64,000 nucleotides of DNA, from assembly GCA_000004985.1 (NCBI GenBank), contig GG738904.1. One strand, 5' to 3'. The translations under genes and the position numbers were made by a program. The notes below the pieces were generated by a model. That model searched no databases and was not told the origin of the DNA. It saw nothing but the letters and a program-made list of their open reading frames with translations. The stretch comes from Naegleria gruberi. Lineage: Eukaryota. Positions 40,568 through 42,207 of this stretch are shown piece after piece; position 1 is the stretch's first letter, and every line of letters starts with the position of its first letter.

Positions 40568-42207
40568 ATGAGAAATTTTGGTGTTTTAACAATTGGAACA
40601 AGGTAAATCTCAATCTTTACCAATTATTATGAAAATAATATTAAATATTAAATATTTAATAGAGGTGATTTTCAGGTAGGTTGTTGATTGATTTAAATTT
40701 TGATGTGAGTGATATATATTATTCACATCATAGCCAATGTTTGCATTTGCTTTGGAATTACAACAACAACTTGTTGATGATCAAGTCTATTTAATTGCCA
40801 GCGAAATTTATCGGAATAATTATGAATCTATTCTTCAACAATCAAACAAGTTGGCTGCGAGATTACAATTCAGAGGATTAAGTGGAAATCCAAAGGAAAC
40901 AATGCAAGATCCGAGAACGCAACAAGCATTGAAAACTGGTGATTATGCAACTTTGATGGCTTTAACAGCTCGTCCAGGACAAATTCTAATGGAAAAGAGT
41001 ACAAACGACATGTTTGAATTGGTAAAGGAAATCAAGTTTGATGGATTAATCACTTGTTCGATGGGAATGCCAATTATTTGGATGTTGAGTGAGAAGTATG
41101 AGATACCAATTGCTTACTTGGGATTAGTTCCAGAGGCTCCAACAAGTGATTTTCCATTCTGTGTAATTTCACCAGTCTCTCTTGGTAGCCCAGAGAAGAA
41201 CTTGGCTTCCTACGATTCAGTCTATAAGGGATCAGCTGCCAGAAGTGAGGAAATGATAAACAATCAACGAATGAGCCTTGGTTTGGAAAAATTGAAAGGA
41301 AAGGATTGGTTGTCTTTGAAGGAGGATCATGACATGCCAATTTGTTATGCCTTTTCAAAGATGGCATTTGGAGGAAAGACACCAAATGGTTACAGGGATA
41401 ATATTAATTTGATTGGATATTTGGAATTGAAATTGGAAAATGAAAAATTAGAGTCTGAAATTGAAGAATTTGTAAAGGATGGAAAGGAAAAGCCAATATT
41501 TCTATCATTTGGATCTATGCCTGCACCAGATCCTTTCCAATTATTTGAACTCACCCATCATGTTCTCTCTGTAAACGCTAATAGGAGAGTAATCTTATCC
41601 TGTGGTATGTAGTAGTTAGGATTATGCTCAAAATTATGACTATGGCAACTTGTAATAATGCATTACAGGATGGACTGAAATGGATCAGGTATTGAAAGAT
41701 TTAAATGAACGTAAATTTGAACATAATCAAGACAAATTTTCAAATGAAGAATCTGGAAAATATACAAACTTAATCCAACAATTGAAACAATTCATGCAAG
41801 AGGACAGATTATTAATCATCAAGGAAGCTCCATACTATCTCCTCTTTCCAAAATGCTCTTGTATTGCTCATCACTGTGGAGCTGGTACAACTGGAACAGC
41901 ACTCATTGCTGGTATTCCTCAAATTCCACTTCCTGTTTTTATGGATCAACCATTCTGGGCTCAAAGAATGCATGATTTGGGAGTTGCCTCTCCTCCCATT
42001 CCATTCAAGGACATTACCAATGAGAAGATTAATTCCTCCATTGAATTTGTATTGGAAAGTGATGAAAGTCAAAGAATCAAAGAAAGGGCCTCCGAAATTA
42101 AGAATCAAATTGCTAAGGAGGATGTAAATCCTCTCTCCCGATCCGTCGATTGCATACTTGATTCCCTCTTAGGAGACAAACCATTCATTGTACCCAAGCT
42201 TCTTTAA
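40568..42207 (+). CDS. GT1-family UDP-glycosyltransferase (sterol/macrolide glucosyltransferase-like). Four exons, join(40568..40602, 40663..40675, 40734..41604, 41669..42207).
   Basis: Exon 1 (MRNFGVLTIGTR) plus a 13-nt microexon (GDFQ) reconstitute the conserved N-terminal TIGTRGD.QP motif. The C-terminal donor-binding signature is HHCGAGTTGTALIAGIPQIPLPVFMDQPFWAQR. Introns are 60, 58 and 64 nt, all GT..AG. Confidence 0.8.

What the first reader, a model, noticed from the sequence alone, without database searches (positions are those of the whole stretch)
40568..42207. 13-nt microexon completes the conserved N-terminal motif of a GT1 glycosyltransferase
The annotated long ORF lacks the N-terminal acceptor-domain start typical of GT1 enzymes. 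The missing motif is recovered from a 35-nt first exon (MRNFGVLTIGTR) plus a 13-nt microexon (AGGTGATTTTCAG, encoding GDFQ), flanked by 60- and 58-nt GT..AG introns. Together these give TIGTRGDFQPMFAFALEL, matching the canonical xIGxRGDVQPxxAL start of sterol and macrolide glucosyltransferases. Automated gene callers usually miss microexons of this size. The enzyme class is often of bacterial affinity in protists.
Basis: partly seen in the sequence, partly recalled or inferred. Interest (0 to 1): 0.5.

Follow-up and report, generated by a model that had tools for sequence, protein, structure and literature searches.

The report
Known 13-nt microexon in Naegleria glycosyltransferase
The 13-base microexon is real by every sequence test available and restores a conserved active-site loop of a Naegleria gruberi glycosyltransferase, but the same gene model is already in the public reference annotation, so it is a correct and ordinary finding.

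Summary
Exon 1 (40568-40602, 35 nt), a 13-nt microexon (40663-40675) and exon 3 (from 40734) join across GT..AG introns of 60 and 58 nt. A third intron (41605-41668) completes a 485-aa protein. Its N-terminus, MRNFGVLTIGTRGDFQPMFAFALEL, matches relatives in N. lovaniensis, a N. gruberi paralog, Willaertia magna, and yeast UGT51.

Of 114 open ATG/GT..AG paths, the proposed one scores 85.6 against 55.0 for the next. The best of 196 shuffles is 55.6. Intron 2 (Q|P, phase 0) sits at the same position in Willaertia and in a metagenomic relative. Intron 1 (inside Arg12) is seen only in the N. gruberi lineage. An AlphaFold2 model (pLDDT 93) is a GT-B fold closest to UGT51 and GtfB. The microexon encodes the first turn of helix alpha-1, including near-invariant Gly13 and Asp14.

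The 485-aa product is letter-for-letter EFC38823.1 / XP_002671567.1 (NAEGRDRAFT_73354). The gene caller therefore did not miss the microexon.

No RNA evidence could be examined. The acceptor substrate is unknown, and membership of the macrolide GT family is not met.

Verdict: confirmed, already known, low interest.

The parts
40568..40602 (+). Exon 1, 35 nt. It holds the start codon in an A-rich context (aaaaaaATG), encodes MRNFGVLTIGT and carries the first two bases (AG) of Arg12. It forms strand beta-1 (residues 3-7) of the N-terminal Rossmann-like domain.
   Evidence: Sequence. No upstream in-frame ATG; the nearest in-frame stop ends at 40528. The same A-rich start context occurs in N. lovaniensis, Willaertia and L004. 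Beta-1 assignment from the AF2 model.
40603..40662 (+). Intron 1, 60 nt, GTAAAT..TAATAG, phase 2 inside Arg12, 13% G+C. It was seen only in the N. gruberi lineage among the loci compared.
   Evidence: It is absent at this position in N. lovaniensis L001, Willaertia L002 and metagenome contig L004. If retained, a stop follows immediately after Arg12.
40663..40675 (+). Microexon, 13 nt, AGGTGATTTTCAG. It carries the third base of Arg12 plus Gly13, Asp14, Phe15 and Gln16, which form the N-cap and first turn of helix alpha-1 in the G-rich loop of the acceptor/N-terminal domain.
   Evidence: G13 and D14 are nearly invariant in a 38-sequence family alignment. It aligns to the RGDVQ of UGT51 and the RGDTE of GtfA. 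Helix alpha-1 starts at residue 12 in the AF2 model. The 13 nt are identical in L004, where they are continuous with exon 1.
40676..40733 (+). Intron 2, 58 nt, GTAGGT..CATAG, phase 0 between Gln16 and Pro17. The position is shared with Willaertia magna and with metagenome relative L004.
   Evidence: If retained, a stop follows three codons later. Its last three bases, TAG, close the exon-3 reading frame upstream.
40734..41604 (+). Exon 3, 871 nt. It encodes residues 17-306 and the first base of Gly307: the rest of the N-terminal domain and the start of the C-terminal domain.
   Evidence: ORF list, splice enumeration, tblastn of orthologs.
41605..41668 (+). Intron 3, 64 nt, GTATGT..TTACAG, phase 1 in Gly307 of the conserved SC|GWT. 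N. lovaniensis has an intron at the same position and phase.
41669..42207 (+). Exon 4, 539 nt including the stop codon. It encodes the C-terminal nucleotide-sugar-binding domain with HHCGAGT (residues 374-380) and DQPFW (residues 399-403).
   Evidence: Pfam EryCIII-like_C at residues 359-455. Invariant or near-invariant columns H374, H375, G377, G379, T380, D399, Q400.

Best explanation
This is the Naegleria gruberi gene NAEGRDRAFT_73354, a four-exon gene for a 485-aa cytosolic GT1-type (GT-B fold) nucleotide-sugar glycosyltransferase.

Its N-terminal beta1-loop-alpha1 element (FGVLTIG-TRGDFQP-MFAFALEL) is split over three exons. An ancestral phase-0 intron lies between Gln16 and Pro17. A second intron, seen so far only in the N. 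gruberi lineage, lies 13 nt upstream inside the Arg12 codon. The 13 nt between them form a constitutive coding microexon.

Both flanking introns are very short (60 and 58 nt) and have canonical GT..AG ends. I infer that each is recognised across the intron (intron definition), so the tiny exon does not need to be recognised as a unit. Skipping it, or retaining either intron, gives a premature stop within 31 codons or fewer. Only the fully spliced mRNA encodes the enzyme.

The enzyme most likely transfers a hexose from a UDP-sugar to a hydrophobic acceptor. A sterol is the leading guess because UGT51 is the nearest solved relative. The acceptor is inferred, not shown.
For: **Shown**
- Exact coordinates, GT..AG ends and frame restoration.
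- The proposed path is the unique best of 114 open splice paths, 85.6 against 55.0. It lies far outside 196 shuffles, max 55.6.
- The assembled N-terminus matches IGTRGDFQP / IGTRGDIQP in N. lovaniensis, a N. gruberi paralog and Willaertia. It also matches FGLLTIGSRGDVQP of yeast UGT51.
- The intron 2 position recurs in Willaertia and L004. The intron 3 position recurs in N. lovaniensis.
- G10, G13, D14 and P17 are near-invariant across 38 family members.
- The AF2 model has pLDDT 93 and pTM 0.92, with beta-1 at residues 3-7 and alpha-1 from residue 12. Foldseek ranks UGT51 first (E 2e-27, TM 0.72-0.85), then GtfB, GtfD and GtfA.
- Mis-splicing outcomes are all truncating.
- The product is identical to XP_002671567.1 / EFC38823.1.

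**Inferred**
- The intron-definition mechanism.
- The donor and acceptor substrates.
- That intron 1 is a gain rather than a retained ancestral intron.
Against: - All database copies of the 485-aa protein derive from the one JGI gene model, which may itself have been guided by homology.
- Exon 1 and the microexon are too short for any coding-potential statistic.
- Identity to UGT51 is only 23-24%, so sterol specificity is a guess.
- Pfam Glyco_transf_28 on the N-terminus scores 23.6 bits, below its 26.2 cut-off.
Confidence: 0.9

Rival explanations
1. There is no microexon. The mRNA or the translation starts at the internal Met40737 and the protein lacks the first 17 residues.
For: Met40737 opens the longest uninterrupted ORF, 291 aa. 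Prokaryote-style ORF callers report exactly that fragment from a 99%-identical metagenome contig (P0001).
Against: - Such a protein would lack strand beta-1 and the G-rich loop with near-invariant G10, G13 and D14.
- Every full-length relative starts with this element.
- The upstream sequence holds a path encoding it exactly, with canonical splice sites, at z of about 9 over shuffles.
- Intron 2 lies at a position used in two other species.
Confidence: 0.03
2. The microexon is real but alternatively spliced. A substantial share of transcripts skip it or retain a flanking intron, giving unproductive mRNAs as a form of regulation or noise.
For: - Skipping gives a frameshift and a stop after 31 codons. 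Retention of intron 1 or intron 2 gives immediate stops. Such isoforms would be silent at the protein level and tolerated.
- Intron retention and some exon skipping are reported in N. gruberi transcriptomes (PMC6142364).
Against: Nothing in the sequence points to regulation. The splice sites are canonical and the introns are of the same size class as intron 3 of this gene (64 nt) and the 60-69-nt introns of the N. lovaniensis and Willaertia orthologs. No RNA data were examined.
Confidence: 0.1
3. The N-terminal model is a homology-driven artefact. Both the JGI pipeline and this analysis picked the path that best imitates relatives, while the locus is really a 5'-degraded pseudogene or uses a different first exon.
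For: The evidence for exons 1 and 2 is homology plus splice-site grammar only. All public copies of the protein trace to one prediction.
Against: - The rest of the gene is intact and conserved at 48-60% identity to orthologs, with all nucleotide-sugar motifs present.
- The 13 nt are identical to the homologous, uninterrupted stretch of L004.
- A 99%-identical environmental strain keeps the microexon, intron 2 and the acceptor of intron 1 unchanged.
- The A-rich start context is shared with three orthologs.
- Shuffles never approach the observed score.
Confidence: 0.03

Closest known systems
NAEGRDRAFT_73354 (XP_002671567.1 / EFC38823.1 / UniProt D2VWE6), 'predicted protein', Naegleria gruberi NEG-M reference annotation
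   Same: It is identical over all 485 residues to the four-exon model reconstructed here, so it contains the microexon. The neighbouring kinase is XP_002671568.1, the next accession.
   Different: Nothing differs in sequence. The public record gives no function, and no paper in the searched library mentions the gene or its microexon.
Saccharomyces cerevisiae UGT51 / ATG26 sterol 3-beta-glucosyltransferase catalytic domain (PDB 5GL5, 5XVM)
   Same: - It is the best solved relative by sequence (E 1.6e-22) and by fold (E 2e-27, TM 0.72-0.85).
- It has the same N-terminal FGLLTIGSRGDVQP element and the same HHGGSGTT...DQ C-terminal motifs.
   Different: - Identity is only 23-24%.
- The Naegleria protein starts directly at the catalytic domain. 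Pfam reports only the GT domains, with no GRAM or PH region. That the fungal full-length enzyme carries such N-terminal regions is from my own knowledge.
- The heterolobosean clade carries an insertion of about 40 residues (roughly residues 311-350) in the C-terminal domain.
- The sterol acceptor is not demonstrated.
Vancomycin-group glycosyltransferases GtfA / GtfB / GtfD (PDB 1PN3, 1IIR, 1RRV)
   Same: - They are the next-best structural and sequence relatives.
- They share the GSRGDxEP N-terminal loop and the DQP motif of the C-terminal domain.
- From my own knowledge, Asp13 and Asp332 of GtfB were the candidate catalytic or sugar-binding residues in the original structure paper. They correspond to Asp14 and Asp399 here.
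   Different: Identity is 17-20%. These are bacterial secondary-metabolite enzymes acting on glycopeptide aglycones, and nothing suggests such a substrate in Naegleria.
Orthologs in Heterolobosea: N. lovaniensis C9374_001948, Willaertia magna ABK040_006208, N. gruberi paralog P0003, metagenome contig L004
   Same: They are 48-60% identical over the full length, with the same N-terminal motif and the same clade-specific insertion. The intron at Q|P is shared with Willaertia and L004. The intron at SC|GWT is shared with N. lovaniensis.
   Different: None of the three loci with DNA available has the intron inside Arg12, so none has a microexon. The genomic DNA of the N. gruberi paralog could not be obtained.
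Coding microexons in short-intron eukaryotes (general phenomenon)
   Same: It is an internal coding exon far below 30 nt, bounded by canonical introns. It is needed to keep the frame and encodes conserved residues.
   Different: This one is not known to be alternative or tissue-regulated, as animal neuronal microexons are. It appears to be a constitutive by-product of two introns lying 13 nt apart.

Membership tests
CAZy GT1-type UDP/TDP-sugar glycosyltransferase (GT-B fold) | Two Rossmann-like domains in the GT-B arrangement | tested here: met
   AF2 model with pLDDT 93 and pTM 0.92. The top 50 Foldseek PDB hits are all GT1 enzymes, best E 2e-27.
CAZy GT1-type UDP/TDP-sugar glycosyltransferase (GT-B fold) | C-terminal nucleotide-sugar-binding signature (HHxGxGT ... 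D/E-Q) | tested here: met
   HHCGAGT at residues 374-380 and DQ at 399-400 are invariant or near-invariant. Pfam EryCIII-like_C scores 53.9 bits (cut-off 31.7) and UDPGT 26.0 bits (cut-off 19.5).
CAZy GT1-type UDP/TDP-sugar glycosyltransferase (GT-B fold) | N-terminal beta1 / G-rich loop / alpha1 element (GxRGDxxP in the UGT51/Gtf subgroup) | tested here: met
   It is present only when exon 1 and the microexon are spliced in: TIGTRGDFQP, aligned to UGT51 and GtfA. G10, G13, D14 and P17 are near-invariant. Pfam Glyco_transf_28 N-terminal domain is sub-threshold at 23.6 bits against 26.2.
CAZy GT1-type UDP/TDP-sugar glycosyltransferase (GT-B fold) | Glycosyl transfer from an activated nucleotide sugar | not testable with these tools
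   Needs an enzyme assay.
Sterol 3-beta-glucosyltransferase (UGT80 / UGT51 / ATG26) | Closest characterised relative is a sterol glucosyltransferase | tested here: met
   UGT51 ranks first by sequence and by fold, but at only 23-24% identity.
Sterol 3-beta-glucosyltransferase (UGT80 / UGT51 / ATG26) | Sterol acceptor specificity and orthology with UGT80/ATG26 in a phylogeny | not tested
   No phylogeny with plant or fungal UGT80/ATG26 was built. Bacterial GT1 proteins score as high as or higher than UGT51: 100-116 bits against 83 bits. No paper in the searched library combined Naegleria with 'sterol glucosyltransferase'; a broader steryl-glycoside search also listed none mentioning Naegleria among its top 12 of 122 hits.
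Macrolide glycosyltransferase family (MGT, TIGR01426; OleI/OleD; Mgt) | Full-length match above the family's curated score | tested here: not met
   TIGR01426 scores 35.8 bits against a cut-off of 260. OleI scores 20 against 700 and Mgt 19 against 700. All matches cover the C-terminal domain only. PDB 2IYA matches residues 361-455 only.
Spliceosomal coding microexon | Internal exon under about 30 nt, bounded by canonical splice sites, required for the reading frame | tested here: met
   13 nt, with AG|...|GT on both sides. 35 + 13 nt restores the frame, and skipping it frameshifts.
Spliceosomal coding microexon | Inclusion in mature mRNA | not testable with these tools
   No RNA-seq or EST data were reachable. 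A public data set exists (PRJEB23822, PMC6142364).

The most novel reading that the evidence does not exclude
Intron 1 may be a recent, N. gruberi-lineage-specific intron gain. It would have landed at a proto-splice-like site (ACAAG|AGGTGA, uninterrupted in L004 and Willaertia, ACGAG|AGGAGA in N. lovaniensis) only 13 nt upstream of an ancestral phase-0 intron. That would make this a dated example of microexon birth by intron insertion in a discoban protist. It would also be a natural test case for how two roughly 60-nt introns are removed across a 13-nt exon, for example by ordered or recursive splicing.
Probability: 0.45. Interest if true: 0.3.

Novelty: already known. Interest (0 to 1): 0.12.

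Why it matters
It matters little beyond quality control.

The biological content is modest:
- a GT1 enzyme of unknown acceptor that is present in Naegleria gruberi (two paralogs), N. lovaniensis and Willaertia;
- a small, clean example of intron turnover, with one shared position, one lineage-specific position and one loss, that happens to leave a microexon encoding near-invariant active-site-loop residues.

Anyone expressing this protein, or annotating related heterolobosean genomes with prokaryote-style ORF callers, would get a truncated and probably inactive product if the microexon were ignored. The 291-aa metagenome ORF P0001 illustrates this.

Tried and rejected
- **Alternative splice paths.** All ATG and 0/1/2-intron paths upstream of exon 3 were enumerated. 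None but the proposed one recovers the motif.
- **Transcript or independent-model evidence.** The exact look-up found only the JGI-derived protein and ORF fragments. N. gruberi gene positions are not on record in the contig index.
- **More heterolobosean loci for intron mapping.** A single-protein scan of metagenome contigs found nothing. The alignment-based scan returned 69 loci, nearly all at 21-33% identity (one, L024, at 42%), which I take to be bacterial-type, and none informative for the 5' introns.
- **Genomic structure of the N. gruberi paralog P0003.** It is not in the window and not on record. No environmental ORF fragment of it turned up. Whether the paralog shares intron 1 remains open.
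- **Introner-like or duplicated origin of intron 1.** blastn-short of the three introns against the window gave only short AT-rich chance matches. Intron 1 and intron 2 are not alike.
- **Literature.** No paper mentions the gene identifiers. Only two papers contain both 'Naegleria gruberi' and 'microexon', and judging by title and abstract neither concerns this topic; they were not opened. No paper in the searched library combined Naegleria with 'sterol glucosyltransferase'; a broader steryl-glycoside search also listed none mentioning Naegleria among its top 12 of 122 hits.
- **Macrolide-GT membership.** Rejected on NCBIfam scores.
- **Phylogenetic test of bacterial origin.** Not attempted, because reference UGT80/ATG26 sequences could not be brought in.

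Full report
**1. What is in the sequence**

- An ATG at 40568 sits in an A-rich context (ttcaaaaaaATG). It has no upstream in-frame ATG, and the nearest in-frame stop ends at 40528.
- Exon 1 runs to 40602 (35 nt) and is followed by gtaaat.
- Intron 1 is 40603-40662 (60 nt, 13% G+C) and ends in aatag.
- The next 13 nt, AGGTGATTTTCAG (40663-40675), are followed by gtaggt.
- Intron 2 is 40676-40733 (58 nt) and ends in catag.
- Exon 3 begins CCA ATG TTT at 40734.

35 + 13 = 48 nt, so the microexon is exactly what is needed to bring exon 1 into the frame of exon 3. The joined product starts MRNFGVLTIGTRGDFQPMFAFALEL.

The gene has a third intron, not mentioned in the finding: 41605-41668, 64 nt, phase 1 in Gly307. 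It is the only GT..AG choice that restores the conserved SC-GWT junction. The complete CDS is 1458 nt and encodes 485 aa.

**2. Is it more than chance?**

The exon-3 frame is closed by TAG at 40731-40733, so without splicing the only possible start is Met40737.

I enumerated every ATG in 40300-40737 combined with zero, one or two GT..AG introns of at least 25 nt. This gave 114 open paths into exon 3. Each was scored against the N-termini of four heterolobosean relatives and yeast UGT51.
- The proposed path scores 85.6.
- The next best scores 55.0.
- The Met40737 start scores 27.

The upstream 434 nt were then shuffled 196 times and the enumeration repeated. Best scores averaged 35.3 (sd 5.6, max 55.6).

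**3. Identity of the locus**

An exact-sequence look-up shows that the 485-aa product is letter-for-letter EFC38823.1 / XP_002671567.1 / UniProt D2VWE6, 'predicted protein', NAEGRDRAFT_73354 of Naegleria gruberi. The 1961-aa ORF immediately downstream is XP_002671568.1.

So the window is N. gruberi NEG-M, and the reference gene model already contains the microexon. The Met40737-start product is not in the collection. What does miss it are prokaryote-style ORF callers. A metagenome contig 99% identical to the window (L003, ERZ929261) is represented only by the 291-aa ORF starting at the internal Met.

No paper in the searchable library mentions the gene's identifiers. Only two papers contain both 'Naegleria gruberi' and 'microexon', and judging by title and abstract neither concerns this topic; they were not opened.

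**4. Comparative evidence**

Full-length relatives exist in four places:
- N. lovaniensis (58-60% identity);
- N. gruberi itself, as a paralog (51%);
- Willaertia magna (48-49%);
- a JGI metagenome contig (57-58%).

All begin with IGV..IGTRGD(F/I)QP..AF.L.L.

Genomic DNA for three of them lets intron positions be compared.

| Locus | Arg-codon intron (phase 2) | Q\|P intron (phase 0) | SC\|GWT intron (phase 1) | Other |
|---|---|---|---|---|
| N. gruberi (window) | present, 60 nt | present, 58 nt | present, 64 nt | none |
| Willaertia magna | absent | present, 66 nt, its only intron | absent | none |
| Metagenome contig L004 | absent | present, 34 nt | absent | none |
| N. lovaniensis | absent | absent | present | KETMQ\|D, phase 1 |

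Sources.

Intron 2 of the window is therefore at a position shared across genera. That supports the splice model independently of the protein motif. Intron 3 is shared with N. lovaniensis.

Intron 1 was seen only in the window and, for its 3' part, in the 99%-identical environmental strain. Where it is absent, the DNA reads ACAAG|AGGTGA, a proto-splice-like MAG|R site. The 13 microexon bases are identical in L004.

By parsimony intron 1 is a gain in the N. gruberi lineage. I could not obtain the paralog's genomic DNA to date it. The introns have no similar copies in the window and do not resemble each other, so nothing points to an introner or a duplication.

**5. What the protein is**

Pfam places the C-terminal half in EryCIII-like_C (2.5e-14) and UDPGT (5e-6), both above their cut-offs. 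Residues 6-75 match the Glyco_transf_28 N-terminal domain just below its cut-off.

Against solved structures, the best sequence match is yeast UGT51 sterol 3-beta-glucosyltransferase (E 1.6e-22). That alignment begins at residue 3 and pairs nFGvLTIGtRGDfQP with kFGLLTIGSRGDVQP. GtfA, GtfB and GtfD follow.

An AlphaFold2 model built on a 38-sequence alignment is confident (pLDDT 93, pTM 0.92). In it, beta-1 spans residues 3-7 and helix alpha-1 starts at residue 12. Foldseek again ranks UGT51 first (E 2e-27, TM 0.72-0.85), then GtfB, GtfD and GtfA.

Exon 1 thus encodes the first strand of the N-terminal Rossmann-like domain. The microexon encodes the N-cap and first turn of alpha-1, including Gly13 and Asp14. 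These two, with Gly10 and Pro17, are near-invariant in the family.

From my own knowledge of the GtfB literature, the corresponding Asp13 and the Asp of the C-terminal DQP motif (Asp399 here) were the proposed catalytic or sugar-binding residues.

A protein starting at Met40737 would lack this element, and I would expect it to be misfolded or inactive. That is an inference.

The acceptor is unknown. Identity to UGT51 is only 23-24%. Bacterial GT1 proteins score as high or higher (100-116 bits, against 83 bits). No paper in the searched library combined Naegleria with 'sterol glucosyltransferase'; a broader steryl-glycoside search also listed none mentioning Naegleria among its top 12 of 122 hits.

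Membership of the macrolide-GT families is not met. Scores are 20-36 bits against cut-offs of 260-700, on the C-terminal domain only.

**6. How it most likely works**

The sequence shows three very short GT..AG introns of 58-64 nt. All alternative processing outcomes are truncating:
- skipping the microexon gives a frameshift and a stop after 31 codons;
- retaining intron 1 gives a stop right after Arg12;
- retaining intron 2 gives a stop three codons later.

I infer that each intron is recognised across itself, as in other short-intron eukaryotes (intron definition). The 13-nt exon would then impose no exon-definition problem, and the microexon would be constitutive.

Some unproductive skipping or retention cannot be excluded. 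It would be consistent with the general report of intron retention and exon skipping in N. gruberi transcriptomes (PMC6142364).

**7. Limits**

No RNA data could be examined. All public copies of the 485-aa protein derive from one prediction. The support for exons 1 and 2 is splice grammar, homology, a shared intron position and the structural argument, not transcripts.

Public RNA-seq (PRJEB23822) would settle the question in minutes.

The 'bacterial affinity' remark was not tested by phylogeny. After the Heterolobosea, the nearest hits are two EukProt transcripts and an environmental protein at 34-35% identity, then many bacteria at 25-29% and an oomycete at 27%.

**8. Verdict**

Novelty: already known, because the gene model has been in the reference annotation, although nobody appears to have commented on it. 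Interest is low.

The only mildly novel angle is that the microexon may have arisen by a lineage-specific intron gain 13 nt upstream of an ancestral intron.

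Noticed in passing
window 38598-40305, minus strand: The divergently transcribed neighbour looks like a secreted protein. ORF 40030-40305 starts with a signal-peptide-like MKSLKSLLYLALGITCLLAFVLV and matches the start of a von Willebrand factor type D domain, including a GDPH motif (Pfam VWD 4.5e-05). ORF 38598-39938 probably continues it after a short intron near 39939-40029 and ends in an extremely lysine-rich tail of about 330 residues with no Pfam match. The shared intergenic region with the glycosyltransferase gene is only 262 nt (40306-40567, 28% G+C).
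   Followed up: partly
window 42455-48340, plus strand: A 1961-aa uninterrupted ORF is identical to XP_002671568.1, 'serine/threonine protein kinase' of N. gruberi. It has kinase-like regions at both ends and leucine-rich repeats before the C-terminal kinase domain (Pfam Pkinase 3e-52, LRR_6). It starts 247 nt after the glycosyltransferase stop codon.
   Followed up: partly
L003 (ENA ERZ929261, run ERR1078381, project PRJEB11402), aligned to window 40639-41626: An environmental metagenome contig is about 99% identical to the N. gruberi NEG-M sequence: 14 mismatches in 988 nt, four of them at the contig end. There are no differences across the microexon and intron 2. A very close N. gruberi strain was therefore present in that sample.
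   Followed up: no
protein residues about 311-350 (window about 41680-41800): The Naegleria/Willaertia clade carries an insertion of about 40 residues between the GWT strand and the LLIIKEAP strand of the C-terminal domain. It is absent from the more distant relative P0006 in alignment A1. It is modelled as helices, with the only low-confidence stretch of the model at residues 324-327. Its function is unknown.
   Followed up: no
homolog lists: Neither protein search listed a Naegleria fowleri homolog, although N. lovaniensis, N. gruberi (two paralogs) and Willaertia magna were found. The gene may be absent from or unannotated in N. fowleri. This was not checked against N. fowleri DNA.
   Followed up: no
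window 40603-40662 (intron 1): Intron 1 is unusually AT-rich (13% G+C, against 26-31% for the other two introns). It contains a short tandem, partly palindromic stretch, ATATTAAATATTAAATATTTAAT, which matches itself on the reverse strand over 23 nt.
   Followed up: partly
L001 3245-3313 (N. lovaniensis ortholog): N. lovaniensis has a 69-nt phase-1 intron at KETMQ|D that is absent from N. gruberi, Willaertia and L004. It has lost the Q|P intron. Across four closely related loci this small gene family shows four intron positions, none of them shared by all four.
   Followed up: partly
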